From a virus, in UHGV virus genome UHGV-0158128: a stretch of 42,844 bases of DNA; one strand, written 5' to 3'. Below the pieces are notes generated by a model. It saw only the letters and a program-made list of their open reading frames with translations, did no database searches and had not been told where the DNA came from. Numbering within the stretch: position 1 is the stretch's first letter; each line of letters starts with the position of its first letter. This document shows positions 24,968 through 42,844 of this stretch, one piece after another. Both the position numbers and the translations under genes were made by a program.

Positions 24968-24979
24968 AGAGGTGTATAA

Positions 24980-28681: not shown

Positions 28682-28738
28682 TATATTTGTAGGTTAGTTG
28701 ATGACTTACAAATTATGTGTAAGGAGGTGAAAAGCCTC

Positions 28739-28867
28739 ATGCTAGACATAATAAAAACACTTCTAGAACATCAAGTATTGGCAGTACTGATAATTCCAGA
28801 AGTGTTAAAACAACTTAGAGAATGGCATCTCGGCTACCTAGACCGAAAGCCAAACAACAAAGATTAA
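28739..28867 (+). CDS. Small ORF (42 aa), amphipathic/hydrophobic
   Basis: AAGGAGGTGA RBS 8 nt upstream. MLDIIKTLLEHQVLAVLIIPEVLKQLREWHLGYLDRKPNNKD. Confidence 0.3.
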   Translation: MLDIIKTLLEHQVLAVLIIPEVLKQLREWHLGYLDRKPNNKD

Positions 28868-28937
28868 CATTATGCTTGGAGCCTGATGGCTCCTCCTTAC
28901 ACTTATATAATATAATATTATTTGGAGGTTTTCAATT

Positions 28938-29048
28938 ATGACAGAACAAATGTATTTAATATTGTTTTTATTAAGCCTACCATTGTTATTATTTATCGGG
29001 AGAAAAACACATTTTTATTGTTTAGATAAAAAGAATGGACGTAGATAA
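28938..29048 (+). CDS. Tiny TM peptide (36 aa), type-I-toxin-like architecture
   Basis: GGAGG RBS 9 nt upstream. MTEQMYLILFLLSLPLLLFIGRKTHFYCLDKKNGRR has a hydrophobic helix plus a basic tail. Its stop is 1 nt before the next ATG. Confidence 0.3.
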   Translation: MTEQMYLILFLLSLPLLLFIGRKTHFYCLDKKNGRR

Positions 29049-29049
29049 T

Positions 29050-29235
29050 ATGAGTGATTATAAATTAAAAATAATTGAATTGATCAAAAGTGATATAACA
29101 GGTTACCAAATTCACAAACAAACTGGCGTAGCGCAATATGTAATTTCACAATTAAGGCAAGGAAAGCGCGAAGTAGATAACTTAACTTTAAATACAACTG
29201 AAAAACTATACAGTTACGCACGACAAGTGTTATAA
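29050..29235 (+). CDS. Small HTH (XRE-like) DNA-binding protein, translationally coupled to the upstream peptide
   Basis: 61 aa from ATG 29050. HTH segment ITGYQIHKQTGVAQYVISQLRQGK. No independent RBS. Confidence 0.5.
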   Translation: MSDYKLKIIELIKSDITGYQIHKQTGVAQYVISQLRQGKREVDNLTLNTTEKLYSYARQVL

Positions 29236-29388
29236 TATAAATGTGAAATGGTCATTCTTGAAATGACTCGGTCGCTACTGGCACAGACCGTTTAAAGTGT
29301 CACCACAACATGAACTGAGAATTCATATGACGTTGCTGACGAGCGACAAAGCTCTGTGTTCCTGAATGGGAGTAGGTTTGTGTGGTGG

Positions 29389-29507
29389 TATAATTTAGTA
29401 ACAGCATAGACTGTCTATAGCAAAGTTGCCGAAGAGATTCTAAACGTATTTATAAATACGTGGCCCTTGCTAGATAACCGCATCTTAACTGATGCGGTTA
29501 TTTTTAT
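29389..29507 (+). ncRNA. Candidate small RNA: extended -10 promoter (TGgTATAAT) to intrinsic terminator, about 105 nt
   Basis: TATAAT at 29389-29394 preceded by TG. No ORF. Internal palindrome GCATAGAC-T-GTCTATAGC. Terminator ataaccgcatc-ttaact-gatgcggttat followed by ttttat at 29474-29507. Confidence 0.25.
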
Positions 29508-29585
29508 CCCCACACAACCAACAAAACCACACCACCTATTAATTTAGGAGTGTGGTTGTTTTAATATGTGAAGCTAAAATAACTA

Positions 29586-29803
29586 CAAATGATACCATTT
29601 TTGATACCATTTTGTTGTAAAACAGAAAAAATAAGGAAAATAAAAAAGGCAAAAAAACGCATTAAATCAACGTTTATTGTCTCATGAAATTTAAATGTAT
29701 ATAAATTTCACTTCCCATGGGTCGTTTTGAATACTTATTTTAGGCTTGTTATTACGCATTTTATAAACTCCTTAATTGTTATTTGATACCAATTTGATAC
29801 CGT
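29586..29803. mobile_element. attP region: four arm-type direct repeats TTGATACC(A/G)TTT plus an 8-bp inverted repeat (GAAATTTA-N8-TAAATTTC) as candidate core
   Basis: Repeats at 29590-29602, 29603-29615, 29781-29791 and 29792-29803. Inverted repeat at 29686-29709. Located between the lysin and the int 3' end. Confidence 0.5.
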
Positions 29804-30850
29804 TTAATCAAATATGCTCATAGCTTGATGTTTTTTATCAGTATATAAATGAGAGTACGTTTGAATTGTTTCTGTAATGTTAGAGTGCCTCATTAATTCC
29901 ATTAATAAATACATATCTACACCATTATTAATTAAATAGCTTGCGTACGAGTGTCTTAAATGGTGTATTTTTAGATTCGGGAATACAGATTTAAAATGAT
30001 ACGAATAGGTAACGTATCTAATAGGTTCTAACCCCCCGAATATAAAATAGTTTTCGTCAAAATATTTATATCTTTTAGAAGATTCATTATACATGTTTTT
30101 AAGCATCTCTCTAATTAATTTTGGTACAGGTATTATCCCTTTAGAACTTTCTTTTTTTAGATTATATTCAATTTCTCTATTACTTAAATTGATTTTCTTA
30201 TTTACGTCAATTTCGCCTTTTATTTTATCGTAATCTTTCCACTGCAAAGCTAAAGCTTCTCCTATTCTAAGACCAGAATAAAATAACAGTCTAGTTAGCT
30301 GACGAGAAGTATCATTTGTGATTTGTTCTACTTTTTCATCAAATTCTTCACGAGTGATAAATTTAGCTTGTGGTTTTGTTCTGGGAATAGGAGTTACCGA
30401 TAATGTGGGGTCGTATAAGAGCTTGTAATGCTTTTTGGCGTAATTGATAACTGCTTTAAAACCTGCCCACACAGATCGTGCATAGTCAACAGAAAGACCT
30501 GCATCGTTTAACAAATAATTCCTGAAAGCAGTACATTGCGTAGTAGTGATTTTGCCAATAGGGATATTTCCGAACCTTTCTTTTATGTGAGTATTATATT
30601 CTGTAGTTCGCTTTTCTATTGAGCGTGCAGAAAGATTTTCATTTTTTAAACGATCAAAAAATATATATTCAAAGGGTTGATTGTCCGAGTATCCATATTT
30701 AACATTTTGTATAAATTCGCTTTCAGCTAGTTTGGCATCTTTCTTACGTTCAAACCCACGCTTCATTTTTCGTTTGTTATTACCGTATACATCTTTATAT
30801 CTAATGGAAAAATACCATTTACCTGTATTATCATCCTTATATACTGGCAT
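29804..30850 (-). CDS. int: Tyrosine integrase (phi11/80alpha type)
   Basis: 348 aa. Catalytic R...HxxR...Y motifs (HHLRHSYAS, TYSHLY). RBS GAGGAGGG. Confidence 0.9.
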   Translation of the reverse strand: MPVYKDDNTGKWYFSIRYKDVYGNNKRKMKRGFERKKDAKLAESEFIQNVKYGYSDNQPFEYIFFDRLKNENLSARSIEKRTTEYNTHIKERFGNIPIGKITTTQCTAFRNYLLNDAGLSVDYARSVWAGFKAVINYAKKHYKLLYDPTLSVTPIPRTKPQAKFITREEFDEKVEQITNDTSRQLTRLLFYSGLRIGEALALQWKDYDKIKGEIDVNKKINLSNREIEYNLKKESSKGIIPVPKLIREMLKNMYNESSKRYKYFDENYFIFGGLEPIRYVTYSYHFKSVFPNLKIHHLRHSYASYLINNGVDMYLLMELMRHSNITETIQTYSHLYTDKKHQAMSIFD

Positions 30851-30911
30851 TTTGCTTTTCCCTCCTCAAAATTGGCAAAAAATAATAAGGGTAGGCGGGC
30901 TACCCGTGATT

Positions 30912-30940
30912 TTAGTACTAGGTACTAAATGTGATATAAT
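30912..30940 (+). promoter_or_regulatory. xis promoter with operator palindrome TTAGTAC-TAG-GTACTAA and extended -10 TGaTATAAT
   Basis: Palindrome at 30912-30928 overlaps the -35 position. -10 at 30935-30940. Confidence 0.45.
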
Positions 30941-30962
30941 AAAATAAAAAGTAGGTGATGAA

Positions 30963-31142
30963 ATGTGTGTAAAATTTACTGACGCAGAAATAGCTTATAT
31001 AAAAGAATCAGTTGAAAATTATAGTAGTGAATTTGATATTTATGACGATGAACAAGAACTTAAATTAAAAATTTATGAACAAATTATGTTAAAAATCAAA
31101 TCTGAATACAAGGATACCTATTTATTCCGTCTTATTAATTGA
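30963..31142 (+). CDS. xis: Excisionase-like small protein, divergent from int
   Basis: 59 aa acidic ORF, read manually (below track cutoff). RBS GTAGGTGATG. Position divergent from int as in phi11. The Xis identity rests on synteny and memory only. Confidence 0.45.
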   Translation: MCVKFTDAEIAYIKESVENYSSEFDIYDDEQELKLKIYEQIMLKIKSEYKDTYLFRLIN

Positions 31143-32054
31143 TTTGGTATATTCTCTTAATATTTTTTCGTTTTCATCAACAATGTCTTTTAGTGTGTTT
31201 AAAAGAAAGTCACAATCACCTTTGGCTACTGCACCAGCTTGTGAATGGTTGATTATGTTTCTCATACTATACGCAATTTCTACCCGTTTTTTGGTTCTAT
31301 AATTTACTTTACCTTCTTTAGTTAATTCTCCTAATAATTTTGTGTACATAGTTGAATCGGTGTCTTTATGTTTGATTTTATTAACTTTTTTTAATTTGAT
31401 TAAAAACGTTTCTATAGCAACAGCAAAGGTTGCTGCAGCTGGCAAATACAATTCCCTTTTATAAGCTTGTAATCCTTGTTCTATTTGATAAGAAAAAGTT
31501 ATATCATCAACAATCTCTTTCATACTATTTAAATCTAAGTGGTTGAACGGTTGTATTTCATCATGTGCTTTGTTTATCAATCTTTCTTTCGACTTCGATA
31601 TCAATGTATTGTAATGATCGTTAGCTAATCTTTTGCCATAATTAAAAAATAAATCTAAATTGTTTTGTAATATTACGGTCCCGATATATTTTCCGTAGTA
31701 AATAGATGTGTAATAAATGTAATTATTAAAATCTAATAATCCGGATTGTTCTTCTACATACTTTTTAGAATCATATATGTATGAAGTAAAGTGTTTAGAC
31801 AAATATTTGATATCAATATTACGAAAATTATATATTTCTTTTAATTTACTGTCATTTGAGATAACGACGATGCAAGGTTCTTCAAAAAAAGATTGATTTA
31901 GATAAAATATCGAAATCTTGTAATCGTCTTTTCTCATGAATGGGAAAGCTTCTGGATTGCTACTAAACTGATAATTGTATCTGTTTTCAACTACATATTT
32001 GTAGCCTTCTAAAAATTTACGCAAGTATTCTTTTAAAGTTTTATTCTCTTCCAT
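31122..32054 (-). CDS. Accessory (moron) protein of unknown function on the cI strand; candidate superinfection-exclusion/defence gene
   Basis: 310 aa. Strong RBS GAGGAGGATGAGGG. Lies between xis and cI. No recognisable catalytic motif. Confidence 0.6.
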   Translation of the reverse strand: MEENKTLKEYLRKFLEGYKYVVENRYNYQFSSNPEAFPFMRKDDYKISIFYLNQSFFEEPCIVVISNDSKLKEIYNFRNIDIKYLSKHFTSYIYDSKKYVEEQSGLLDFNNYIYYTSIYYGKYIGTVILQNNLDLFFNYGKRLANDHYNTLISKSKERLINKAHDEIQPFNHLDLNSMKEIVDDITFSYQIEQGLQAYKRELYLPAAATFAVAIETFLIKLKKVNKIKHKDTDSTMYTKLLGELTKEGKVNYRTKKRVEIAYSMRNIINHSQAGAVAKGDCDFLLNTLKDIVDENEKILREYTKSINKTE

Positions 32055-32193
32055 CCCTCATCCTCCTCACGCCATATAGGCGTTTATTTCTTATATTCTT
32101 CTTCAACATACTTTTTTACTAAATATTCAAGAATAAGTTCGGTCATTAGATCGTTTTCTTCGTACTCTTTATGAAGTTACTTTATTCTTTGAA

Positions 32194-32361
32194 TTAATTT
32201 AACTTATCGCCATCTAATTTTTGTGAAATAAATTCCAAGTATTTACGCGCATTATGTGACGATAAATCTTTAGGTAACTCATAAGTGAATGGTTGATTAC
32301 CACTAGTTAAAACTTCATATACTATAGTTTCTTTTTTTATTTTGCAATTAGTTATTTTCAT
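32194..32361 (-). CDS. Small protein (55 aa) between cI and the 310-aa gene
   Basis: AAAAGGAG RBS 6 nt upstream of ATG. MKITNCKIKKETIVYEVLTSGNQPFTYELPKDLSSHNARKYLEFISQKLDGDKLN. Read manually. Confidence 0.35.
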   Translation of the reverse strand: MKITNCKIKKETIVYEVLTSGNQPFTYELPKDLSSHNARKYLEFISQKLDGDKLN

Positions 32362-32430
32362 TATAAACTCCTTTTAAACACTGATGAAATAGACGTCTTT
32401 TATATTAAAGTGCCATATAGGCGCTATTAA

Positions 32431-33150
32431 TCACAATACAACTTTGCCCATTACTTTAATATTACTAAACGAAGCGACTTTGATATCATCATACTTCGGA
32501 TTTAGAGATACCAAATTAATATAGTCTTCGCATATATCTACACGCTTGATAAGACTTACTCCATCTAATACAACGAGTGCAATTGTACCATCTTTAATAG
32601 AATCTTCTTTCTTAATAAAAGCGTATGTTCCTTGTTTTAACATAGGTTCCATTGAATCACCATTAACTAAAATACAAAAATCAGCATTTGATGGCGTTTC
32701 GTCTTCTTTAAAAAATACTTCTTCATGCAATATGTCATCATATAATTCTTCTCCTATGCCAGCACCAGTTGCACCACATGCAATATACGATACTAGTTTA
32801 GACTCTTTATATTCATCTATAGAAGTGACTTTATTCTGTTCATCTAATTGCTCATTTGCGTAGTTAAGTACGTTTTTTTGTCTTGGAGGCGTGAGTTTAC
32901 TGTATATGGAAGTGATGTCGTTTTTTTTATTATTTCTTGTAGGAAACAAATCATCGATACTGATATTTAAAATATGAGCAATTTCAAACAAATCATCTTG
33001 TTTAGGAGTTCTGTACCCTGTCTCATAATTTGAAATAGTAGCCTTTTTAGTGTTGAGTTTTTCTCCAAGTTGATCTTGAGTTAAGTTCAATTTGGTTCTA
33101 TAGTATCTGATTTTATTGCCTATAAATTTCGCTAATTCTTTTTTATCCAT
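32431..33150 (-). CDS. cI: CI repressor (HTH_XRE + S24 LexA-like peptidase)
   Basis: 239 aa. N-terminal HTH (LTQDQLGEKLNTKKATISNYETG). C-terminal GDSMEP Ser and K of the S24 autocleavage dyad. Confidence 0.9.
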   Translation of the reverse strand: MDKKELAKFIGNKIRYYRTKLNLTQDQLGEKLNTKKATISNYETGYRTPKQDDLFEIAHILNISIDDLFPTRNNKKNDITSIYSKLTPPRQKNVLNYANEQLDEQNKVTSIDEYKESKLVSYIACGATGAGIGEELYDDILHEEVFFKEDETPSNADFCILVNGDSMEPMLKQGTYAFIKKEDSIKDGTIALVVLDGVSLIKRVDICEDYINLVSLNPKYDDIKVASFSNIKVMGKVVL

Positions 33151-33175
33151 TTTCTTACCTCCTTAAATTTACCTA

Positions 33176-33265
33176 TAGTATAACCCAATTATTTTTGGTA
33201 TTCAACAAAAAAATACACGAAAAGCAAACTTTTATGTTGACTCAAGTACACGTATCGTGTATAGT
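33176..33265. promoter_or_regulatory. Divergent cI/cro promoter-operator region
   Basis: Minus strand: TTGAAT-17-TATACT (PRM-like). Plus strand: TTGACT-17-TATAGT at 33237-33265 (PR-like). Operator palindrome TACACGTATCGTGTA at 33247-33261 and a TACACG half-site at 33213. Confidence 0.7.
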
Positions 33266-33291
33266 TAGTTTTGTAAGCGGGAGGTGACAAC

Positions 33292-33510
33292 ATGCAATGG
33301 AATTTAATAAAGTTGAGAAAAGAAAGAAAGTGTACTCAAGAAGATTTAGCAAACCTCTTGAATATATCAACTGAAGGTTATCGTTTAAAGGAATTAGGAA
33401 AGCATCAATTTAAGAATGATGAGATGTTTATTATCGCTGATTTTTTTGACGAAAATATTGGAGATATTTTTTTACCCACAAAGTACACGAAACGCAAACA
33501 AACATCTTAA
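33292..33510 (+). CDS. cro: Cro-like repressor
   Basis: 72 aa HTH protein divergent from cI. RBS GGGAGGTGA. Confidence 0.8.
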   Translation: MQWNLIKLRKERKCTQEDLANLLNISTEGYRLKELGKHQFKNDEMFIIADFFDENIGDIFLPTKYTKRKQTS

Positions 33511-33525
33511 AAGGAGGAACGAACA

Positions 33526-34314
33526 ATGCAAGCATTACAAACATTTAATTTTAAAGAGCTACCAGTAAGAACAGTGGAAATTGAAAACGAACCTTATTTT
33601 GTAGGAAAAGATATTGCTGAAATTTTAGGATATGCAAGGGCAGACAATGCCATCAGAAATCATGTTGATAGCGAGGACAAGCTGACGCACCAATTTAGTG
33701 CATCAGGTCAAAACAGAAATATGATCATTATCAATGAATCAGGATTATACAGTTTAATCTTTGACGCTTCTAAACAAAGTAAAAACGAAAAAATCAGAGA
33801 AACCGCTCGAAAATTCAAACGATGGGTAACATCAGACGTCCTACCAGCCATTCGCAAACACGGTATCTACGCAACAGACAATGTAATTGAACAAACATTA
33901 AAAGATCCAGACTACATTATTACAGTGTTGACTGAGTATAAGAAAGAAAAAGAGCAAAACTTACTTTTACAACAAGAAATCGGAGAACTAAAACCCAAAG
34001 CAGACTATGTAGATGAAATCTTAAAGTCAACTGGCACATTAGCCACAACTCAAATCGCGGCAGACTACGGTATATCAGCACAAAAGTTAAACAAACTACT
34101 ACACGAAGCTAGACTACAACGAAAAGTAAATAAACAGTGGGTGCTTTACTCAGAACACATGGGCAAGAGTTACACAGATTCAGACACTATAACAATTGTG
34201 CGTTCTGATGGCAGAGAAGACACAGTTTTACAAACTAGATGGACGCAAAAAGGCAGATTGAAAATACATGAAATCATGACTGAATTCGGTTATGAAGCTA
34301 ACGTAACTGCTTAA
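33526..34314 (+). CDS. Antirepressor (Bro-N / KilA-C type)
   Basis: 262 aa. N-terminal Bro-N-like (FVGKDIAEILGY). Position after cro. Confidence 0.75.
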   Translation: MQALQTFNFKELPVRTVEIENEPYFVGKDIAEILGYARADNAIRNHVDSEDKLTHQFSASGQNRNMIIINESGLYSLIFDASKQSKNEKIRETARKFKRWVTSDVLPAIRKHGIYATDNVIEQTLKDPDYIITVLTEYKKEKEQNLLLQQEIGELKPKADYVDEILKSTGTLATTQIAADYGISAQKLNKLLHEARLQRKVNKQWVLYSEHMGKSYTDSDTITIVRSDGREDTVLQTRWTQKGRLKIHEIMTEFGYEANVTA

Positions 34315-34330
34315 CAGGAGGGCACAGCAA

Positions 34331-34525
34331 ATGCAAGCTCAAAACAAAAAAGTCATCTATTACTACTATGACGAAGAAGGTAATAGACGACTATTATCAA
34401 TTGGTAATTTAGATACCTATTTATTAGCAGATATCAAATCAAGATTTGGTTTATATAAAAAGGCAATCCCTGATTTAGATAATCTATACATTCAAATAGA
34501 TGGTATCGAATTTAAATTATATTAA
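34331..34525 (+). CDS. Hypothetical small protein
   Basis: 64 aa. RBS CAGGAGGG. Confidence 0.45.
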   Translation: MQAQNKKVIYYYYDEEGNRRLLSIGNLDTYLLADIKSRFGLYKKAIPDLDNLYIQIDGIEFKLY

Positions 34526-34555
34526 ATTTTTGGAAATGCAAAGGAGCATAAACAA

Positions 34556-34771
34556 ATGAACACGTTATACAAAACAACCCTCCTCATCACAATGGCAGTT
34601 GTGACTTGGAAGGTTTGGAAGATTGAACGAAATACGAGAAAGCCTGTAATCAATAGAAATGATTTTAGTAAAGAGTCTACAGCAGAAACGATTGAGCGAC
34701 ACAGTGATCCTGATTCAGGAATAAAACTACTTAAGGCATTTTCCGACTTCACTAAAGAGAACCTTACCTAA
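34556..34771 (+). CDS. Small membrane-anchored protein
   Basis: 71 aa. RBS AAAGGAG. N-terminal TM helix. Confidence 0.45.
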   Translation: MNTLYKTTLLITMAVVTWKVWKIERNTRKPVINRNDFSKESTAETIERHSDPDSGIKLLKAFSDFTKENLT

Positions 34772-34981
34772 TTCTAAGAAGATGAAGTTTCGTTGGTACT
34801 CAAGTGATTCATGTAAAGCAGTAGAGTAAATCTTTTCACTGGAAACACCTTCATCAGCATTCTCTGTAAGTTTTTGAAGGTTCTTTTTGAAGTGTTCACT
34901 TTGACCACCGTATAGTTCATCAGCTTCATTAACAATTTTATAGTAAAGCTGTTCATATTCACTATATGACATATTATCCAC
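34727..34981 (-). CDS. Minus-strand small acidic protein within the early region
   Basis: 84 aa. Very strong RBS AAAGGAGGTGG. Extended -10 (TGTGTATAAT) upstream on the minus strand. Convergently overlaps the 34556..34771 gene by 45 nt. Confidence 0.5.
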   Translation of the reverse strand: MDNMSYSEYEQLYYKIVNEADELYGGQSEHFKKNLQKLTENADEGVSSEKIYSTALHESLEYQRNFIFLELGKVLFSEVGKCLK

Positions 34982-35042
34982 CTCCTTTCACTAGGAGATA
35001 ACTAAATTATACACAACACAAAAATAAAAAGGAGGAATAGAT

Positions 35043-35264
35043 ATGATAAAAAATAGTTTGCAAGCTAAAGAACTTGCGGTAATTTTATCTGTTTCTAAAT
35101 CCAAAGCAGGACAAATAATAAGAGAACTGAATAAAGAGCTTGAAGATGAAGGATACATTGCGATACGAGGCAGAATACCAGTCCAATTAGCTAGAAAAAA
35201 ATTCCCTTATCACGACTTATCAGACGAGAGAATAATGGAGGAGTTGAAAAAAGAAAATGAGTAA
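35043..35264 (+). CDS. HTH DNA-binding protein (excisionase/MerR-like fold)
   Basis: 73 aa. RBS AAAAGGAGGAA. HTH segment LAVILSVSKSKAGQIIREL. Confidence 0.55.
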   Translation: MIKNSLQAKELAVILSVSKSKAGQIIRELNKELEDEGYIAIRGRIPVQLARKKFPYHDLSDERIMEELKKENE

Positions 35265-35418
35265 CATTTATAAAAGCTACCTATTAGCAGTACTGTGCTT
35301 CACGGTCTTAGCGATTGTACTCATGCCGTTTCTATACTTCACTACAGCATGGTCAATTGCGGGATTCGCAAGTATCGCAACATTCATATTCTATAAGGAA
35401 TACTTTTATGAAGAATAA
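35257..35418 (+). CDS. Small membrane peptide (53 aa)
   Basis: Overlapping start (aaaATGAgtaa). Two hydrophobic segments. Read manually. Confidence 0.3.
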   Translation: MSNIYKSYLLAVLCFTVLAIVLMPFLYFTTAWSIAGFASIATFIFYKEYFYEE

Positions 35419-35510
35419 AAAAACTGCTACTTGCGCCAACAAGTAACAGTGACAAACGATTAACAAAATTAATTCGTGTTCAATATAAAACGAAAAACGG
35501 AGGAAGTCAA

Positions 35511-35772
35511 GATGTATTACGAAATAGGCGAAATCATACGCAAAAATATTCATGTTAACGGATTCAATTTTAATCTATTCATTTTAAAAGGTCATATGGG
35601 CATATCAATACAAGTTAAAGATATGAACAACGTACCAATTAAACATGCTTATGTCGTAGATGAGAATGACTTAGATATGGCATCAGACTTATTTAACCAA
35701 GCAATAGATGAATGGATTGAAGAGAACACAGACGAACAGGACAGACTAATTAACTTAGTCATGAAATGGTAG
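35511..35772 (+). CDS. Hypothetical early protein
   Basis: RBS AACGGAGGAAG before ATG 35511. The track ORF starts at 35476. Confidence 0.45.
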
Positions 35773-35781
35773 GAGGTTGCT

Positions 35782-36003
35782 ATGAAGCAGACTGTAACTT
35801 ATATCATTCGTCATAGGGATATGCCAATTTATATAACTAACAAACCAACTGATAACAATTCAGATATTAGTTACTCCACAAATAGAAATAGAGCTAGGGA
35901 GTTTAACGGTATGGAAGAAGCGAGTATCAATATGGATTATCACAAAGCAATCAAGAAAACAGTGACAGAAACAATTGAGTACGAGGAGGTAGAACATGAC
36001 TGA
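35782..36003 (+). CDS. Hypothetical early protein
   Basis: 73 aa. RBS TAGGAGGTT. Confidence 0.45.
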   Translation: MKQTVTYIIRHRDMPIYITNKPTDNNSDISYSTNRNRAREFNGMEEASINMDYHKAIKKTVTETIEYEEVEHD

Positions 36004-36775
36004 ACAAACTAATCAAGATGTCGATATTTTAACGCAACTAGGTGTAAAAGACATCAGCAAACAAAATGCAAACAAGTTTTATAAATTTGCGATATACGGC
36101 AAGTTCGGTACTGGTAAAACTACGTTTTTAACAAAAGATAACAATGCCTTAGTACTAGATATAAATGAGGACGGAACAACGGTAACAGAAGATGGGGCAG
36201 TTGTGCAGATTAAGAATTATAAGCATTTTAGTGCAGTGATTAAAATGCTGCCTAAAATTATTGAACAACTAAGAGAAAACGGAAAACAAATTGATGTTGT
36301 AGTGATTGAAACAATCCAAAAGTTACGTGATATCACTATGGACGACATCATGGACGGTAAATCAAAGAAACCGACATTTAATGATTGGGGCGAGTGTGCT
36401 ACACGCATTGTAAGTATTTATCGTTATATTTCTAAATTACAAGAACATTATCAATTTCATCTTGCTATAAGCGGACACGAGGGCATTAACAAAGACAAAG
36501 ATGATGAGGGAAGTACTATCAATCCAACAATCACGATAGAGGCACAAGACCAAATAAAAAAAGCAGTCATCAGTCAATCTGACGTGTTAGCAAGAATGAC
36601 AATAGAAGAACATGAGCAAGACGGCGAAAAAACTTATCAATATGTACTTAACGCTGAACCATCAAACTTATTCGAGACAAAGATAAGACACTCAAGCAAC
36701 ATCAAAATTAACAACAAACGTTTCATTAATCCAAGTATTAACGATGTTGTACAAGCAATTAGAAATGGTAATTAA
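35996..36775 (+). CDS. Sak4-like RecA-fold ATPase (AAA_24)
   Basis: 259 aa. Walker A GKFGTGKTTF. Immediately precedes the SSB-like gene, as in Sak4-SSB modules. Confidence 0.6.
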   Translation: MTEQTNQDVDILTQLGVKDISKQNANKFYKFAIYGKFGTGKTTFLTKDNNALVLDINEDGTTVTEDGAVVQIKNYKHFSAVIKMLPKIIEQLRENGKQIDVVVIETIQKLRDITMDDIMDGKSKKPTFNDWGECATRIVSIYRYISKLQEHYQFHLAISGHEGINKDKDDEGSTINPTITIEAQDQIKKAVISQSDVLARMTIEEHEQDGEKTYQYVLNAEPSNLFETKIRHSSNIKINNKRFINPSINDVVQAIRNGN

Positions 36776-36804
36776 AAACTAATTAAAAGGACGGTATAAA
36801 AATT

Positions 36805-37359
36805 ATGAAAATCACTGGTAGAACACAATACATTCAAGAAACTAATCAAGAGGCATTCATGAAAGGTGGGGACTTTTTAGGAGCTGGAGAATTTACAGTA
36901 AAAGTTGCAAATGTCGAGTTTAACGACAGAGAAAACAGATACTTCACGATTGTTTTTGAAAACAACGAAGGTAAACAATACAAACACAACCAATTCGTCC
37001 CACCATTCCAACAAGATTATCAAGAAAAACAATATATCGAGTTACTTAGTAGATTAGGAATTAAATTGAACTTACCAGATTTAACTTTTGACACAGATCA
37101 ATTAATTAACAAAATCGGAACTATTGTACTTAAAAATAAATTTAACGAGGAACAAGGCAAGTATTTTGTAAGACTCTCATATGTAAAAGTTTGGAATAAA
37201 GACGATGAAGTAGTTAATAAACCAGAACCTAAAACTGATGAGATGAAACAAAAAGAACAGCAAGCAAATGGGAAACAGACGCCAATGAGTCAACAATCAA
37301 ACCCATTCGCTAATGCTAATGGTCCAATAGAAATTAATGATGATGATTTACCGTTCTAG
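36805..37359 (+). CDS. SSB-like protein with acidic C-terminal tail (DDDLPF)
   Basis: 184 aa. C-terminal NDDDLPF resembles the SSB protein-interaction tail. Confidence 0.5.
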   Translation: MKITGRTQYIQETNQEAFMKGGDFLGAGEFTVKVANVEFNDRENRYFTIVFENNEGKQYKHNQFVPPFQQDYQEKQYIELLSRLGIKLNLPDLTFDTDQLINKIGTIVLKNKFNEEQGKYFVRLSYVKVWNKDDEVVNKPEPKTDEMKQKEQQANGKQTPMSQQSNPFANANGPIEINDDDLPF

Positions 37360-37371
37360 GACGTGGTTTAA

Positions 37372-38037
37372 ATGCAATACATTACAAGATACCAGAAAGA
37401 CAATGACGGCACTTATTCCGTCGTTGCTACTGGTGTTGAACTTGAACAAAGTCACATTGACTTGCTAGAAAACGGATATCCACTAAAAGCAGAAGTAGAG
37501 GTTCCGGACAATAAAAAGTTATCTATAGAACAACGTAAAAAAATATTCGCAATGTGTAGAGATATAGAACTTCACTGGGGCGAACCAGTGGAATCAACTA
37601 GAAAATTATTACAAACAGAATTGGAAATTGAAAAAGGTTATGAGGAAATCAGTCTGCGTGACTGTTCAATGAAAGTCGCAAGGGAGTTAATAGAACTGAT
37701 TATAGCGTTTATGTTTCATCATCAAATACCTATGAGTGTAGAAACGAGTAAGTTGTTAAGTGAAGATAAAGCGTTATTATATTGGGCTACAATCAACCGC
37801 AATTGTGTAATATGCGGAAAGCCTCACGCTGACCTAGCACATTACGAAGCAGTAGGTAGAGGCATGAACAGAAACAAGATGAATCACTATGACAAACATG
37901 TATTAGCGTTATGTCGCGAACATCACAACGAGCAACATGCGATTGGCGTTAAGTCGTTTGATGATAAATATCACTTGCATGACTCGTGGATAAAAGTTGA
38001 TGAGAGGCTCAATAAAATGTTGAAAGGAGGAGAATAA
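37372..38037 (+). CDS. Conserved phage protein with CxxC...H/N-rich Zn-finger/HNH-like motif (DUF968-type)
   Basis: 221 aa. CVICGKPH...HYEAV...NHYDKHVLALCREHHNEQH. Confidence 0.4.
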   Translation: MQYITRYQKDNDGTYSVVATGVELEQSHIDLLENGYPLKAEVEVPDNKKLSIEQRKKIFAMCRDIELHWGEPVESTRKLLQTELEIEKGYEEISLRDCSMKVARELIELIIAFMFHHQIPMSVETSKLLSEDKALLYWATINRNCVICGKPHADLAHYEAVGRGMNRNKMNHYDKHVLALCREHHNEQHAIGVKSFDDKYHLHDSWIKVDERLNKMLKGGE

Positions 38038-38816
38038 TGGTTAAATCGATATTTTTACAAGATGGAGAAGAAATTTTAGTTGATGATGAAGATTACGAGA
38101 GAGTTAATCAGCATACTTGGCATAAAGCTTTTAAAGATAATTACAGAATGATTGTGAATAGTGATAAAAAGCATTTACCTGATTTTATTCTAAAAAAAAG
38201 TTTCCAAAAAATAAAAAACAATGATTTCACAAGAAAAAATCTAACAACTGAAGGTAATAAAACAAGATGGAGCAAAGCGAAGTGTAACAATTCATCTAAA
38301 TATAAAGGCGTTTCATGGGATAAAAAAAATAATAATTGGTATGCATGTATAGCTGTTGATAAAAAAACCAAAAACTTAGGTCACTTTGTAAATGAAGATG
38401 AAGCAGCAAAAGCTTACAACAATGCAGTTAATGAATATTGGGGTGGTGTTGGTTACCTTAATATAATTGGAGAAGATAATAGGCTGAAAAAAAGAAACTA
38501 TAAAACAAACATAAAGCAATTGAAGAGGGGAACTGATAAAAACAATTTAAGAGGAATAAACAAAATAAAACATAGATATTATTCAAAAATATTTTATTCT
38601 GGCAACTATATAGCGTTAGGCGGATATGACGATTTAAACAAAGCGAGATTAGTTTACAACAAATGTTCGTCATACCTGCATGGATCTGACGCGATCCTTA
38701 ACGACGTACCTATGACAGATGAACTTAAAGAATTCATATCTAACTGGGAAGTACCGGACAAAATAAAAGCGCTGAAAGGAGAAGACAATGGGAGAAGTAT
38801 CGTGGATAAAACTTAA
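38037..38816 (+). CDS. Free-standing HNH_3 / AP2-domain homing-endonuclease-like protein
   Basis: 259 aa. N-terminal LVDDEDYERVNQHTWH (HNH_3-type). Two AP2-like segments (YKGVSWDKKNNNWYACI; LRGINKIKHRYYSKIFY). Extremely A-rich with A7-A8 runs. Confidence 0.6.
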   Translation: MVKSIFLQDGEEILVDDEDYERVNQHTWHKAFKDNYRMIVNSDKKHLPDFILKKSFQKIKNNDFTRKNLTTEGNKTRWSKAKCNNSSKYKGVSWDKKNNNWYACIAVDKKTKNLGHFVNEDEAAKAYNNAVNEYWGGVGYLNIIGEDNRLKKRNYKTNIKQLKRGTDKNNLRGINKIKHRYYSKIFYSGNYIALGGYDDLNKARLVYNKCSSYLHGSDAILNDVPMTDELKEFISNWEVPDKIKALKGEDNGRSIVDKT

Positions 38817-39591
38817 AGTTGGCATGTTTGATGACAGCAAAATCAAATATATCGAAGCTTTACCCGAAAGAGATACGATCATAACCATTTGGGTTAAGTT
38901 GCTAACTTTATCAGGAAAGTACAACGAACAAGGTTACATTATGTTATCTGAAAACTTGCCGTATAACGAAGAAATGTTAGCAAATGAGTTTAGCCGACCT
39001 ATTAACTCAATAAGGTTAGCAATACAAACTTTTGAGACGTTGGGCATGATTGAAAAAGTTAATGGTGTCATAAAAGTGACAAACTGGGAAAAACACCAAA
39101 ACATTGAAGGACTCGAGAAAATCAGGGCTCAGAACAGGTTGAGGAAACAAAAGCAACGAGAAAACAACAGAAAATTGCTAAATGGTCACGTGACGTCACG
39201 TGACAGTCACGCAACAGAAGAAGATAAAGAATTAGATAAAGAATTAGAAAGAGATAAAGAAAAAGATATAGATAAGAACTTAAGTTCAAATAATAGCGCA
39301 ACTGACGTTACGCATGAGCAATTTGAGGAATGGTGGAAACTTTACAACAAGAAAAAAGATAAGAAGATGTCTTTCACTAAATTCAAATCATGCGTAAAGA
39401 AACATACTTTTGAGCAAATCATGCAAGGTACTCGAGAGTATTTAAAAACTATTACAGACAAACAATATCAAAAGTACCCTAAAACGTTTTTAACTAACGA
39501 AAGCTATATGAATGATTATAGCGAAGAGATTAAAGAAACTGGTATAGATCAATTGGAACGTATGAAGTACGACGAAAGTTATTGGGACTAG
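38788..39591 (+). CDS. Replisome organizer (phage_rep_org_N-type initiator)
   Basis: 267 aa. Conserved N-terminus WIKLKVGMFDDSKIKYIEALPE. RBS AAAGGAGAAG. Confidence 0.7.
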   Translation: MGEVSWIKLKVGMFDDSKIKYIEALPERDTIITIWVKLLTLSGKYNEQGYIMLSENLPYNEEMLANEFSRPINSIRLAIQTFETLGMIEKVNGVIKVTNWEKHQNIEGLEKIRAQNRLRKQKQRENNRKLLNGHVTSRDSHATEEDKELDKELERDKEKDIDKNLSSNNSATDVTHEQFEEWWKLYNKKKDKKMSFTKFKSCVKKHTFEQIMQGTREYLKTITDKQYQKYPKTFLTNESYMNDYSEEIKETGIDQLERMKYDESYWD

Positions 39592-39600
39592 GAGGATGTT

Positions 39601-40374
39601 ATGAAACCGTTATTCAACGAAAAAATAAACGAAAGTTTAAAAAAATATCAACCAATCGAAGTAATACTAAGACAGAATTGCGATAAATGCGGGCATCAAT
39701 ATGACTTATATAAGTTTGAAAATGGATATGAATACAAAGACGGTTGCGAATGTGAAATTCAAAGATTGGCTTACGAAGAATACAAAAGGAATAAACAAAA
39801 GAAACTTGATTATATTTTCAATCAATCAAATGTTAATCCGTCATTAAGAGATGCAACGGTTAACAACTATAAGCCACAAAATGAAAAACAAGTAAAAGCT
39901 AAACAAACAGCAATAGAGTATGTACAGGGTTTCTCTACAAAAGAACCAAAATCATTAATATTGCAAGGTTCATATGGAACTGGTAAAAGCCACCTAGCAT
40001 ACGCTATCGCAAAAGCAGTCAAATCTAAAGGGCATACAGTTGCTTTTATGCACATACCAATGTTGATGGATCGTATCAAAGCGACATACAACAAAAATGC
40101 AGTTGAAACTACAGACGAGCTAGTCAGATTGCTAAGTGATATTGATTTACTTGTACTAGATGATATGGGTGTAGAAAACACAGAGCACACTTTAAATAAA
40201 CTTTTCAGCATTGTTGATAACAGAGTAGGTAAAAACAACATCTTTACAACTAACTTTAGTGATAAAGAACTAAATCAAAATATGAACTGGCAACGTATCA
40301 ATTCAAGAATGAAACACAATGCGAGAAAAGTAAGAGTAATCGGAGACGATTTCAGGGAGCGAGATGCATGGTAA
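39601..40374 (+). CDS. DnaC/IstB-like helicase loader ATPase
   Basis: 257 aa. Walker A GSYGTGKSHLA, Walker B LLVLDDMG. Confidence 0.8.
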   Translation: MKPLFNEKINESLKKYQPIEVILRQNCDKCGHQYDLYKFENGYEYKDGCECEIQRLAYEEYKRNKQKKLDYIFNQSNVNPSLRDATVNNYKPQNEKQVKAKQTAIEYVQGFSTKEPKSLILQGSYGTGKSHLAYAIAKAVKSKGHTVAFMHIPMLMDRIKATYNKNAVETTDELVRLLSDIDLLVLDDMGVENTEHTLNKLFSIVDNRVGKNNIFTTNFSDKELNQNMNWQRINSRMKHNARKVRVIGDDFRERDAW

Positions 40375-40526
40375 CCAAAGAATTTTTAAAAACTAAACTT
40401 GAGTGTTCAGATATTTATGCTCAGAAACTCATAGACGAGGCACAGGGCGATGAAAATAGGTTGTACGACCTATTTATCCAAAAACTTGCAGAACGTCACA
40501 CACGCCCCGCTGTCGTCGAATATTAA
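40368..40526 (+). CDS. 52-aa peptide, Sri-like (candidate DnaI-binding replication inhibitor / SaPI1 derepressor)
   Basis: ATG overlaps the loader stop (gcATGGTAA). 52 aa MVTKEFLKTKLECSDIYAQKLIDEAQGDENRLYDLFIQKLAERHTRPAVVEY. Size and position match Sri. Identity is from memory. Confidence 0.4.
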   Translation: MVTKEFLKTKLECSDIYAQKLIDEAQGDENRLYDLFIQKLAERHTRPAVVEY

Positions 40527-40538
40527 GGAGTGTTAAAA

Positions 40539-40760
40539 ATGCCGAAAGAAAAATATTACTTATACCGAGAAGATGGCACGGAAGATATTAAGGTCATCAA
40601 ACATGAAGATAACGAGAATGAAGTTTATTCGCTCACAGGAGCCCATTTCAGCGACGAAAAGAAAATTATGACTGATAGTGACCTAAAACGATTCAAAGGC
40701 GCTCACGGGCTTCTATATGAGCAAGAACTAGGATTACAAGCAACGATATTTGATATTTAG
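40539..40760 (+). CDS. Hypothetical protein
   Basis: RBS TAAGGAGTG before ATG 40539. Confidence 0.45.
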   Translation: MPKEKYYLYREDGTEDIKVIKHEDNENEVYSLTGAHFSDEKKIMTDSDLKRFKGAHGLLYEQELGLQATIFDI

Positions 40761-40769
40761 AGGTGCACG

Positions 40770-41174
40770 ATGAGTAAATACAACGCTAAGAAAGTTGAGT
40801 ATAAAGGGATTGTATTTGACAGCAAAGTAGAATGTGAATATTACCAATATTTAGAAAGTAATATGAATGGCACTAACTATGATCGTATCGAACTACAACC
40901 GAAATTTGAATTATTACCAAAACTAGATAAACAACGAAAGATTGAATATATTGCAGACTTCGCGTTATATCTCGATGACAAACTGATTGAAGTTATCGAC
41001 ATTAAAGGTATGCCAACCGAAGTAGCAAAACTTAAAGCTAAGATGTTCAGACACAAATACAGAAACATAAAACTCAATTGGATATGTAAAGCGCCTAAGT
41101 ATACAGGTAAAACATGGATTACGTACGAGGAATTAATTAAAGCAAGACGAGAACGCAAAAGAGAAATGAAGTGA
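40770..41174 (+). CDS. DUF1064-like (PD-(D/E)xK-fold) phage protein
   Basis: 134 aa. IADF...EVIDIKG resembles a D-x(n)-E-x-K nuclease motif. Confidence 0.45.
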   Translation: MSKYNAKKVEYKGIVFDSKVECEYYQYLESNMNGTNYDRIELQPKFELLPKLDKQRKIEYIADFALYLDDKLIEVIDIKGMPTEVAKLKAKMFRHKYRNIKLNWICKAPKYTGKTWITYEELIKARRERKREMK

Positions 41175-41178
41175 TCTA

Positions 41179-41364
41179 ATGCAACAACAAGCATATATAA
41201 ACGCAACGATTGATATAAGAATACCTACCGAAGTTGAATATCAGCATTTTGATGATGTGGATAAAGAAAAAGAAACGCTGGCAGATTACTTATATAACAA
41301 TCCTGACGAAATACTAGAGTATGACAATTTAAAAATTAGAAATGTAAATGTAGAGGTGGAATAA
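41179..41364 (+). CDS. Hypothetical small acidic protein
   Basis: 61 aa. Confidence 0.4.
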   Translation: MQQQAYINATIDIRIPTEVEYQHFDDVDKEKETLADYLYNNPDEILEYDNLKIRNVNVEVE

Positions 41365-41727
41365 ATGGGCAGTGTTGTAATCATTAATAATAAACCATAT
41401 AAATTTAACAATTTTGAAAAAGAACTAATGGCAAAGCGCGGGATAAACGCTGGAATTGTTTCTAAACGTGTTAGAGGTTGTTGGGAGTTTTCAGAAGCTT
41501 TAGACGCGCCTTATGGCATGCACCTAAAAGAATATAGAGAAATGAAACAAATGGAAAAGATTAAACAAGCGAGACTCGAACGTGAATTGGAAAGAGAGCG
41601 AAAGAAAGAGGCTGAGCTACGTAAGAAGAAGCCACATTTGTTTAATGTACCTCGGAAACATTCACGTGATCCGTACTGGTTCGATGTCACTTATAACCAA
41701 ATGTTCAAGAAATGGAGTGAAGCATAA
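41365..41727 (+). CDS. Hypothetical protein with basic coiled-coil
   Basis: 120 aa. Confidence 0.45.
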   Translation: MGSVVIINNKPYKFNNFEKELMAKRGINAGIVSKRVRGCWEFSEALDAPYGMHLKEYREMKQMEKIKQARLERELERERKKEAELRKKKPHLFNVPRKHSRDPYWFDVTYNQMFKKWSEA

Positions 41728-41981
41728 TGAGCGTAATAAGTAACAGAAAAGTAGATATGAACAAAACGCAAGACAATGTTAAGCAACCTGCACATTACAC
41801 ATACGGCGACATTGAAATTATAGATTTTATCGAACAAGTTACGGCACAGTACCCACCACAATTAGCATTCGCAATAGGTAATGCAATCAAATACCTGTCT
41901 AGAGCACCGTTAAAGAACGGTCATGAGGATTTAGCAAAGGCGAAGTTTTACGTCCAAAGAGCCTTTGACTTGTGGGATTGA
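41727..41981 (+). CDS. Hypothetical protein (DUF3310-like)
   Basis: 84 aa. ATG overlaps the previous stop. Confidence 0.45.
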   Translation: MSVISNRKVDMNKTQDNVKQPAHYTYGDIEIIDFIEQVTAQYPPQLAFAIGNAIKYLSRAPLKNGHEDLAKAKFYVQRAFDLWD

Positions 41982-42229
41982 TGACCATGATAGATAACGC
42001 ACGCAAAGAATACTTAAACCAATTTTTCGGATCTAAGAGATATCTGTATCAGGATAACGAGCGAGTGGCACATATCCATGTAGTAAACGGCACTTATTAC
42101 TTTCATGGGCATATCGTGCCAGGTTGGCAAGGTGTGAAAAAGATATTTGATACAGCGGAAGAGCTTGAAACATATATAAAGCAACATGGTTTGGAATACG
42201 AGGAGCAGAAGCAACTAACTTTATTTTAG
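41972..42229 (+). CDS. Hypothetical protein
   Basis: 85 aa. Confidence 0.4.
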   Translation: MGLMTMIDNARKEYLNQFFGSKRYLYQDNERVAHIHVVNGTYYFHGHIVPGWQGVKKIFDTAEELETYIKQHGLEYEEQKQLTLF

Positions 42230-42234
42230 AGGAG

Positions 42235-42408
42235 ATGGAAATGATGAATGCTGAAAAGCATATGCAAATGATGCAAATGTTACAAAATTGTGTGATTGAT
42301 AAGTATGTATCACACGACGAATACGAAGAGTTAATTGCCATAGATAAGCATGGTAATAAAATGTTTATTAAATTTTATCCGAATACGGAGGATGACACAA
42401 ATGGATAA
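42235..42408 (+). CDS. Small Met/Gln-rich protein (57 aa)
   Basis: RBS TAGAGGAG. Read manually. Confidence 0.3.
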   Translation: MEMMNAEKHMQMMQMLQNCVIDKYVSHDEYEELIAIDKHGNKMFIKFYPNTEDDTNG

Positions 42409-42637
42409 CCGTGAACAAATAGAACAATCCGTTATAAGTGCTAGTGCGTATAACGGCAATGACACAGAGGGATTGCTAAAAGAGATTGAAGACGTGTATA
42501 AGAAAGCGCAAGCGTTTGATGAAATTCGCGAAGCTATTAATGCGCAATGGGTTGAGTATCCAGAAGACTGGGCGTCAGAGGTTTTGAGAGAAGTAAGAGA
42601 GCTTGAATATGAGGAGGAACAGGAAAATGAAAATTAA
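42401..42637 (+). CDS. Hypothetical acidic protein
   Basis: RBS ACGGAGGATG before ATG 42401. The track ORF begins at 42350. Confidence 0.45.
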   Translation: MDNREQIEQSVISASAYNGNDTEGLLKEIEDVYKKAQAFDEIREAINAQWVEYPEDWASEVLREVRELEYEEEQENEN

Positions 42638-42844
42638 TGAATCTTTGAAGAAATTAAAAGAAAAAGGATACAAAGAAAATGAAGATAAAGCTATTTTTAA
42701 TTTAGCTGATGGTACGCTAGAAATTTACATCGACCATGACGAAAAAACAATAATTACAGAATTCCATGATTTAAAGGTATTCGTGTCAGAAGATTTAAAA
42801 GATAAAAGTATGGAGAGCGTTATGTATGAATTGGCTGGAATTGA
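42627..42844 (+). CDS. Hypothetical protein, 3' end truncated by the window edge
   Basis: RBS GAGGAGGAACAGG. ATG 42627 overlaps the previous stop. Open to the end of the window. Confidence 0.4.
   Translation, partial: MKINESLKKLKEKGYKENEDKAIFNLADGTLEIYIDHDEKTIITEFHDLKVFVSEDLKDKSMESVMYELAGI

What the first reader, a model, noticed from the sequence alone, without database searches (positions are those of the whole stretch)
40368..40526. 52-aa ORF overlapping the helicase-loader stop: Sri-like candidate; together with Dut this phage may encode two SaPI derepressors
A 52-aa acidic/helical peptide begins at the ATGG overlapping the DnaC-like gene stop. This is the genomic position and size of Sri, a Staphylococcus aureus phage peptide that binds host DnaI and derepresses SaPI1 via Stl. 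The dUTPase at 18..527 carries the non-conserved insertion (about residues 95-130, DAIASNGYITPGVFDIKGEIDLSDAIRQY...), which in Staphylococcus phage Duts mediates SaPIbov1 Stl binding. Both calls predict helper-phage capacity for pathogenicity-island mobilisation.
Basis: partly seen in the sequence, partly recalled or inferred. Interest (0 to 1): 0.45.

Follow-up and report, generated by a model that had tools for sequence, protein, structure and literature searches.

The report
Sri, a known SaPI1 derepressor gene

Summary
The ORF at 40368..40526 (+) is real. Its ATG overlaps the stop of the DnaC-like loader gene by 7 nt, exactly as in phage 80alpha. Its product is 50/52 identical to phage 77 ORF104 (PDB 5HE9, in complex with DnaI) and 48/52 identical to 80alpha Sri (PDB 7P4A/7ZVI, named Sri; the 2022 paper describes the Sri-Stl(SaPI1) complex). 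Of 16 published Stl contact residues, 15 are identical; the exception is M16I. Phage 55-2 has Val at position 16 and is still blocked by SaPI1, so an aliphatic change there seems tolerated. The DnaI determinants Y17 and K39 are kept, and the C-terminal tail carries only I49V.

The dUTPase at 18..527 is 167/169 identical to phi11 Dut, a proven SaPIbov1 inducer, and the Stl contact residues named in the main text of the complex paper are all kept. One correction: in the phi11 Dut-Stl crystal structure the repressor sits mainly in the active centre. The motif VI insertion adds only a minor contact.

"Two derepressors" is an undercount. The window also carries a Sak4 that is 258/259 identical to the proven SaPI2 inducer, a DUF3113 protein and a DUF2483 (80alpha ORF15-like) protein. 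Phage 80alpha carries an equivalent five-family set. Verdict: already known, low interest. No induction was tested here.

The parts
40354..40359 (+). Ribosome-binding site AGGGAG of sri, inside the 3' end of the loader gene
   Evidence: It is identical to 80alpha, where the G10983A change in this hexamer is listed as a ribosome-binding-site mutation; an evolved 80alpha phage carrying it together with dut and ORF15 mutations no longer induced SaPI1 (PMC4619825 S2/S3 Tables).
40368..40526 (+). sri: 52-aa inhibitor of host helicase loader DnaI and antirepressor of SaPI1 Stl
   Evidence: ORF; 50/52 identical to 5HE9_E and 48/52 to 7P4A_E. PHROG 809; the exact sequence occurs in S. aureus prophages.
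39601..40374 (+). Phage DnaC/DnaI-type helicase loader, partner gene of sri (homologue of 77ORF013 and 80alpha gp21)
   Evidence: IstB_IS21, Bac_DnaA; 88% identical to 80alpha gp21; 87% identical to 77ORF013, with the AAA+ region nearly identical. PMC4887207: ORF013 binds the host DnaC helicase and is not bound by ORF104.
38788..39591 (+). Replisome organiser, first gene of the replication block organiser-loader-sri
   Evidence: Phage_rep_org_N, E = 2.6e-52. Same gene order as 80alpha gp20-gp22.
18..527 (+). Trimeric dUTPase of the phi11 type with the motif VI insertion; predicted SaPIbov1 Stl antirepressor
   Evidence: 167/169 identical to 4GV8 and 6H4C; only T4I and R8K differ from phi11, and H21, D24, R64, D81, Y84, I110 and K133 are identical.
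35996..36775 (+). Sak4 single-strand annealing protein; predicted SaPI2 Stl antirepressor
   Evidence: AAA_24. (PHROG 124, Sak4-like); 258/259 identical to phi52A ORF16, shown to induce SaPI2 (PMC5779228).
35782..36003 (+). DUF2483 protein, homologue of 80alpha ORF15 (the SaPIbov2 inducer); candidate only
   Evidence: 63% identical to 80alpha gp15, at the same position just upstream of the recombinase gene. DUF2483, E = 1e-37.
41179..41364 (+). DUF3113 protein; candidate SaPImw2 Stl antirepressor
   Evidence: DUF3113; 93% identical to 80alpha gp25, which induces SaPImw2; 77% identical to phi11 ORF19, which does not (PMC6233219).
40539..40760 (+). DUF3269 gene immediately downstream of sri (context). 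The likely true start is the ATG at 40539, and its AAGGAG site overlaps the sri stop.
   Evidence: 73 aa, as for 80alpha gp23.

Best explanation
The ORF is the sri gene of a temperate S. aureus siphovirus. It is co-transcribed and translationally coupled with the phage's own DnaC-like helicase loader. By homology, the 52-aa product is a three-helix bundle with an extended C-terminal tail. Its primary job for the phage is to bind the AAA+ domain of the host loader DnaI through Tyr17, Lys39 and the C-terminal beta-strand. This blocks DnaI self-assembly and host replication while the phage loader takes over the host DnaC helicase. SaPI1 exploits the same protein: Sri wedges into the tetrameric Stl(SaPI1) repressor and locks its DNA-binding domains in a geometry that cannot bind the stl-str operators, which switches on island excision, replication and packaging. 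Shown here: the gene, its layout, and its near-identity to the crystallised proteins, including 15 of 16 Stl contacts and the DnaI determinants. Inferred: that this allele (I16, V49) binds both partners, and that the phage therefore induces SaPI1.
For:: full-length matches to 5HE9_E (phage inhibitor protein, 50/52 identical) and to 7P4A_E/7ZVI_E (Sri, 48/52 identical), with E between 4e-30 and 9e-29; same length, same 7-nt overlap with the loader stop and same AGGGAG site as 80alpha gp22. (PMC9638917 Table S9): the Stl contacts are E12, C13, M16, Y17, K20, L21, E24, N30, Y33, L35, I37, K39, L40, A41, E42 and H44, and all are identical here except M16I; phage 55-2 Sri has V16, and 55-2 is blocked by SaPI1, which requires induction. 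(PMC4887207): Y17 and residues 47-52 are essential for DnaI binding and K39 is peripheral. Here Y17 and K39 are kept and the tail is PAVVEY rather than PAIVEY; the partner loader is 87-88% identical to 80alpha gp21 and 77ORF013; no + strand promoter-like or terminator-like site between the loader and sri. (PMC4619825): sri alleles are under purifying selection; the packaging and head genes are 95-97% identical in DNA to 80alpha and phi11, the classical SaPI helpers.
Against: No experiment was done on this allele. M16, the one altered interface residue, contacts Stl Y76 and I80, and Stl Y76A abolishes Sri binding. Laboratory escape mutations in 80alpha Sri cluster next to it: C13Y/F, Y17H and A18D. 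None of 183 phage records carries the exact I16+V49 allele. Divergent Sri homologues of the 52A/55-3 type (48-50% identical) escape SaPI1 interference, so family membership alone does not guarantee induction.
Confidence: 0.86

Rival explanations
1. This is a Sri allele tuned to escape SaPI1. It still inhibits DnaI, but M16I (with I49V) weakens Stl(SaPI1) binding enough that the phage does not induce SaPI1 or suffer its interference.
For: M16 contacts Stl Y76 and I80, and Stl Y76A abolishes binding. Escape mutations arise at neighbouring residues 13, 17 and 18. Phages are known to evolve inducer alleles with lower Stl affinity. The allele is very common in S. aureus genomes.
Against: Met to Ile is conservative. 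Phage 55-2 Sri carries Val at this position and the phage is still blocked by SaPI1. No M16 change appears among the escape mutants held in the supplement text. All other 15 contacts are identical. I49 is not in the Stl contact list.
Confidence: 0.1
2. The protein is a DNA-binding transcriptional regulator, as RefSeq and PHROG 809 label it.
For: Annotation only: 'transcriptional regulator' in RefSeq records of 80alpha, 77 and 52A and in PHROG 809.
Against: The two structural studies describe the near-identical protein bound to proteins (the DnaI AAA+ domain; the Stl tetramer), and the papers read report no DNA binding by it. No Pfam or NCBIfam DNA-binding domain is matched. The label most likely derives from its derepressor activity.
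Confidence: 0.02
3. This is a chance ORF in AT-rich DNA, not a gene.
For: Many spurious 30-60 aa ORFs occur in the same region on both strands.
Against: Full-length 92-96% identity to crystallised, functionally tested proteins. A conserved ribosome-binding site and overlap architecture. Published purifying selection.
Confidence: 0.01

Closest known systems
Phage 77 ORF104 (PDB 5HE9; Hood and Berger 2016, PMC4887207)
   Same: 52 aa and 50/52 identical. It lies directly after, and overlaps, a DnaC-like loader gene (77ORF013, 87% identical to the window's loader). Y17, K39 and the C-terminal strand are present.
   Different: M16I and I49V. I49V lies inside the C-terminal residues 47-52 that are required for DnaI binding, and it is a conservative change.
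80alpha Sri (gp22; PDB 7P4A/7ZVI; Miguel-Romero 2022, PMC9638917)
   Same: 48/52 identical, with the same 7-nt overlap with the loader stop and the same AGGGAG ribosome-binding site. 15 of 16 Stl(SaPI1) contact residues are identical.
   Different: I9T, M16I, K31R and I49V. Only M16 is an Stl contact.
phi11 trimeric dUTPase (PDB 4GV8; complex with SaPIbov1 Stl, 6H4C)
   Same: 167/169 identical, including an identical motif VI and the motif IV triplet D132-K133-L134 that gives phi11 Dut its higher Stl affinity.
   Different: T4I and R8K at the N-terminus, neither of which is among the contact residues named in the main text of PMC6695447 (its Supplementary Table 3 was not read). phi11 itself lacks sri, so this phage combines a phi11-type Dut with a 77/80alpha-type Sri.
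Phage 80alpha as a multi-SaPI helper (Dut, Sri, ORF15, Sak, DUF3113)
   Same: The window carries one member of each of the same five derepressor families, in the same gene order. Its packaging module is 95% identical in DNA.
   Different: The recombinase is Sak4 (phi52A type) rather than Sak. The Dut is the phi11 type rather than the 80alpha type. The ORF15 homologue is only 63% identical.
phi52A / phi55-3 Sri variant
   Same: Same locus and the same C13, Y17, K39 and AIVEY-type tail.
   Different: Only 48-50% identical to the window protein. Phage 55-3, which carries it, escapes SaPI1 interference (PMC4619825). The window protein belongs to the other, inducing type.

Membership tests
Sri / 77ORF104 family | Full-length sequence similarity to 80alpha Sri and phage 77 ORF104 | tested here: met
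   48/52 and 50/52 identical, E = 7e-29 and 4e-30, no gaps.
Sri / 77ORF104 family | About 52 aa, encoded immediately after and overlapping the phage DnaC-like loader gene in the replication operon | tested here: met
   52 aa and a 7-nt overlap, as in 80alpha (10992 vs 10998) and phage 77 (34393 vs 34399).
Sri / 77ORF104 family | DnaI-binding determinants: Tyr17, Lys39 and the C-terminal strand (residues 47-52) | tested here: met
   Y17 and K39 are present. The tail is PAVVEY versus PAIVEY, 5/6 identical.
Sri / 77ORF104 family | Stl(SaPI1) contact residues as listed in Table S9 of PMC9638917 | tested here: met
   15 of 16 are identical and M16I is the exception. V16 occurs in the SaPI1-sensitive phage 55-2.
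Sri / 77ORF104 family | Three-helix bundle with an extended C-terminal tail | not tested
   No model was built. The fold is inferred from 92-96% identity to solved chains and their published description.
Sri / 77ORF104 family | Physical binding to DnaI and to Stl(SaPI1), and SaPI1 induction in vivo | not testable with these tools
   This needs pull-down or biolayer interferometry, a reporter assay and a transfer assay.
Staphylococcal phage trimeric Dut that induces SaPIbov1 | Trimeric dUTPase core motifs plus the phage-specific motif VI insertion | tested here: met
   dUTPase Pfam and TIGR00576 matches split around the insertion; 167/169 identical to phi11 Dut.
Staphylococcal phage trimeric Dut that induces SaPIbov1 | Stl(SaPIbov1) contact residues of the 6H4C complex: H21, D24, R64, D81, Y84, I110 and K133 | tested here: met
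   all identical to phi11. The residue list comes from PMC6695447.
Staphylococcal phage trimeric Dut that induces SaPIbov1 | SaPIbov1 induction in vivo | not testable with these tools
   A natural phi11-Dut variant (B2) with 5 changes is non-inducing and insoluble, so near-identity is strong but not absolute. Here there are only 2 N-terminal changes.
Sak4 recombinases that induce SaPI2 | Identity to phi52A ORF16 / phi80 ORF13 | tested here: met
   258/259 identical; phi52A Sak4 is sufficient to induce SaPI2 and binds its Stl in a two-hybrid assay.
DUF3113 inducers of SaPImw2 | DUF3113 domain, and an allele of an inducing type | tested here: inconclusive
   The domain is met. The protein is 93% identical to the inducing 80alpha gp25 and 77% identical to the non-inducing phi11 ORF19. 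Alleles differ in activity, so the outcome is uncertain.
80alpha ORF15-type inducers of SaPIbov2 | DUF2483 protein upstream of the recombinase gene with an inducing allele | tested here: inconclusive
   Family and position are met, but identity to 80alpha ORF15 is only 63%, and single substitutions abolish induction in 80alpha.

The most novel reading that the evidence does not exclude
The I16/V49 Sri allele is abundant in S. aureus prophages but absent from all 183 sequenced phage records that carry a Sri homologue. It could be a naturally selected compromise variant that keeps DnaI inhibition while lowering affinity for Stl(SaPI1). That would reduce SaPI1 interference and give a natural example of separation of function at the single interface residue M16.
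Probability: 0.1. Interest if true: 0.3.

Novelty: already known. Interest (0 to 1): 0.1.

Why it matters
Practically, it allows correct annotation. Databases call this gene 'hypothetical protein' or 'transcriptional regulator', and there is no Pfam or NCBIfam model for it. It also predicts that this phage, a prophage common in S. aureus genomes, can mobilise toxin-carrying islands that share the SaPI1, SaPIbov1 and SaPI2 repressor types, and possibly the SaPImw2 and SaPIbov2 types. Scientifically it adds nothing new. The mechanism, the structures, the gene layout and the presence of several inducers in one helper phage are all published.

Tried and rejected
Pfam and NCBIfam scans of the 52-aa protein found nothing. 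This reflects a missing family model, not a lack of homology. I looked for M16 among the published 80alpha Sri escape mutations and found none in the supplement text that is held. I tried to learn whether this exact allele had been tested. Strain 21252 (EHO92899) is one of the Sri variants listed in PMC4619825, but its sequence is only in an image, so this could not be settled. I searched the phage collection for the exact allele and found none at 100% identity among 183 records. It does occur in prophages of complete chromosomes. A phage record of exactly the same length (CP062462.1, 42,844 bp) turned out to be only 93.7% identical over 70% of the second half of the window (25001..42844; the only part in which it was listed), so it is not the source. 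I did not build a structure model, because 92-96% identity to crystal structures makes it redundant, and the tools cannot model complexes. The promoter and terminator scan gave counts at or below the shuffled expectation and is used only to note that no + strand signal lies between the loader and sri.

Full report
**Observation.**
- The upstream gene (39601..40374) is a DnaC/IstB-type AAA+ protein ending ...GAT GCA TGG TAA. The ORF's ATG lies inside GCATGG, so the two genes overlap by 7 nt.
- An AGGGAG ribosome-binding site lies at 40354..40359.
- The peptide has pI 5.2, with 10 acidic and 8 basic residues, so it is mildly acidic.
- The region is full of chance ORFs of similar length on both strands, so the ORF alone is weak evidence. 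The evidence below makes it a gene.

**Identity.** A sequence search of all PDB chains gave three full-length, ungapped matches.
- 5HE9 chain E, 'Phage inhibitor protein' (phage 77 ORF104): 50/52 identical, E = 4e-30.
- 7P4A and 7ZVI chain E, 'Sri' (80alpha): 48/52 identical.
- In 80alpha, gp22 (10992..11150, 52 aa) overlaps the stop of the DnaC-like loader gp21 (ends 10998) by the same 7 nt. It is preceded by the same AGGGAG. Phage 77 has the same layout.
- The G10983A mutation listed as a ribosome-binding-site change in 80alpha evolved on SaPI1 falls in that hexamer (PMC4619825 S2/S3 Tables; position worked out).
- The loader is 88% identical to 80alpha gp21 and 87% identical to 77ORF013, with a nearly invariant AAA+ region.
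- No + strand promoter-like or terminator-like site separates the loader from the ORF.

The ORF is therefore sri, not merely 'Sri-like'.

**Mechanism, from the literature on the near-identical proteins.**
- Hood and Berger (PMC4887207) showed that ORF104 binds the AAA+ domain of S. aureus DnaI. Tyr17 and the last residues (47-52, a beta-strand added to the DnaI sheet) are essential, and Lys39 reaches the nucleotide site but is peripheral.
- Binding remodels the initiator-specific motif, occludes the subunit interface and represses the ATPase.
- The neighbouring ORF013 is a phage loader that binds the host DnaC helicase and is not bound by ORF104. Together this suggests a two-pronged takeover of host replication.
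- Miguel-Romero et al. (PMC9638917) showed that 80alpha Sri is a three-helix bundle with an extended tail. It inserts into the tetrameric Stl(SaPI1), contacts three subunits and fixes the DNA-binding domains more than 60 Å apart, when about 30 Å is needed. The repressor then cannot bind its operators. Stl Y76A abolishes Sri binding and SaPI1 transfer.

**How this allele compares.**
- Against ORF104 it differs at M16I and I49V. Against 80alpha Sri it also differs at I9T and K31R.
- Table S9 of PMC9638917 lists 16 Sri residues that contact Stl: E12, C13, M16, Y17, K20, L21, E24, N30, Y33, L35, I37, K39, L40, A41, E42 and H44. Fifteen are identical here, and M16, which touches Stl Y76 and I80, is Ile.
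- Laboratory escape mutations in 80alpha Sri are L7S, C13Y/F, Y17H, A18D, nonsense or frameshift changes and the ribosome-binding-site change. No M16 change appears in the text held.
- Phage 55-2 Sri has Val at position 16, and 55-2 is the variant blocked by SaPI1. Its sibling 55-3 escapes and carries the divergent 52A-type allele, which is 48-50% identical to the window protein.
- An aliphatic beta-branched residue at position 16 is therefore compatible with SaPI1 sensitivity. I treat M16I as probably tolerated and keep an 'escape allele' rival at about 10%.
- I49V lies in the DnaI-binding tail and is conservative. V49 also occurs in phage vB_SauS_277g.

**Distribution.**
- The gene index lists it in 1691 blocks, including prophages in complete S. 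aureus chromosomes with the same gene order as the window, for example CP030377.1.
- None of 183 phage records with a Sri homologue has the exact allele. The best are 96.2% identical.
- Sources name it 'hypothetical protein'. RefSeq phage records and PHROG 809 call it 'transcriptional regulator'. Pfam and NCBIfam have no model for it.

**The dUTPase.**
- The 169-aa product of 18..527 is 167/169 identical to phi11 Dut (PDB 4GV8, and 6H4C in complex with the N-terminal part of SaPIbov1 Stl). It differs only at T4I and R8K.
- The residues that PMC6695447 names as Stl contacts (H21, D24, R64, D81, Y84, I110 and K133) are unchanged. So is the motif IV triplet D132-K133-L134, which gives phi11 Dut its higher affinity.
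In the complex, Stl helix alpha8 and the following loop occupy the active centre and mimic dUTP, touching motifs I-IV. Motif VI contributes I110.
- Deleting motif VI abolishes binding in 80alpha Dut. The 80alpha and phi11 deletion mutants differ significantly in their capacity to induce SaPIbov1, a difference traced to motif IV (PMC4914113).
- A natural phi11-Dut variant with five changes (B2) is insoluble and non-inducing, so near-identity is strong evidence but not proof.

**More than two derepressors.** Following the neighbourhood turned up three further members of published derepressor families.
- The AAA_24 protein at 35996..36775 is a Sak4 recombinase, 258/259 identical to phi52A ORF16. 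That protein alone induces SaPI2 and binds its Stl (PMC5779228).
- The 61-aa DUF3113 protein at 41179..41364 is 93% identical to 80alpha gp25, which induces SaPImw2, and 77% identical to phi11 ORF19, which does not (PMC6233219).
- The 73-aa DUF2483 protein at 35782..36003 is 63% identical to 80alpha ORF15, the SaPIbov2 inducer, and sits at the same place just upstream of the recombinase gene.
- 80alpha itself carries Dut, Sri, ORF15, Sak and DUF3113, so a multi-inducer helper phage is the known norm for this group.
- phi11 lacks sri (PMC4619825; the phi11 replication module has a DnaB-like helicase instead). This phage is thus a mosaic: a phi11-like late region and Dut joined to a 77/80alpha-type loader-sri pair and a 52A-type Sak4.

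**Helper capacity.** Derepression is necessary but not sufficient, because the island must also be packaged. Window 1..25000, which holds the terminase, portal, head and tail genes, is 95.3% identical to 80alpha and 97.1% identical to phi11 over 97-98% of its length. These two are the classical SaPI helpers. Compatibility is therefore likely, but it is inferred.

**Verdict.** The feature is already known in every respect: gene, structure, mechanism, layout and co-occurrence with other inducers. Interest is low. The only open point is whether the common I16/V49 allele binds Stl(SaPI1) as well as the crystallised alleles do, and a simple reporter assay would settle that.

Noticed in passing
window 35996..36775 (+): Sak4 recombinase (AAA_24), 258/259 identical to phi52A ORF16, an experimentally proven SaPI2 Stl antirepressor.
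   Followed up: yes
window 41179..41364 (+): DUF3113 protein, 93% identical to 80alpha gp25 (induces SaPImw2) and 77% identical to phi11 ORF19 (does not). A candidate fourth derepressor.
   Followed up: partly
window 35782..36003 (+): DUF2483 protein, 63% identical to 80alpha ORF15 (the SaPIbov2 inducer), overlapping the start of the Sak4 gene just as gp15 overlaps gp16 in 80alpha. A candidate fifth derepressor whose allele activity is unknown.
   Followed up: partly
window 42627..42844 joined to 1..25: An 80-aa ORF runs off the window's end and continues at its start, stopping 8 nt into dut. The window therefore looks like a complete, circularly permuted phage genome of 42,844 bp. The ORF sits where phi11 has gene 24 (phi ETA orf 33-like protein).
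   Followed up: partly
window 38037..38816 (+): A 259-aa ORF with a sub-threshold AP2 DNA-binding domain (29.8 bits against a cut-off of 33.3) lies between the HNHc_6 nuclease gene and the replisome organiser. phi52A has no gene at that junction and 80alpha has a reverse-strand DUF4393 gene there. It may be a homing-endonuclease-like insertion. It is present in the matching prophages (L009, L011, L013).
   Followed up: no
L001 (80alpha), L002 (52A), L003 (phi11) annotation tables: RefSeq product names are misleading in these records. The trimeric dUTPase is labelled 'Na/K ATPase', Sri is labelled 'transcriptional regulator', and PVL ORF50-like proteins are labelled 'Panton-Valentine leukocicin'.
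   Followed up: no
window 40530..40760 (+): The DUF3269 ORF is listed from a GTG at 40530, but the ATG at 40539 gives the 73-aa length of 80alpha gp23 and lies 8 nt after an AAGGAG that overlaps the sri stop codon. 40539 is the likely true start.
   Followed up: partly
whole window compared with the phage collection: The genome is a mosaic. Bases 1..25000 are 99.3% identical to 'mosaic phi11' PP554657.1 and 97% identical to phi11. For bases 25001..42844 no record covers more than 70%. A record of identical length (CP062462.1, 42,844 bp) is only 93.7% identical over 70% of that second part and is not the source.
   Followed up: partly
L009-L013 (prophages carrying the exact Sri allele): The same sri allele is found next to three different Dut types: a trimeric 169-aa form, a trimeric 177-aa form and a dimeric dUTPase_2 form. 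The inducer genes therefore reassort independently between prophages.
   Followed up: no
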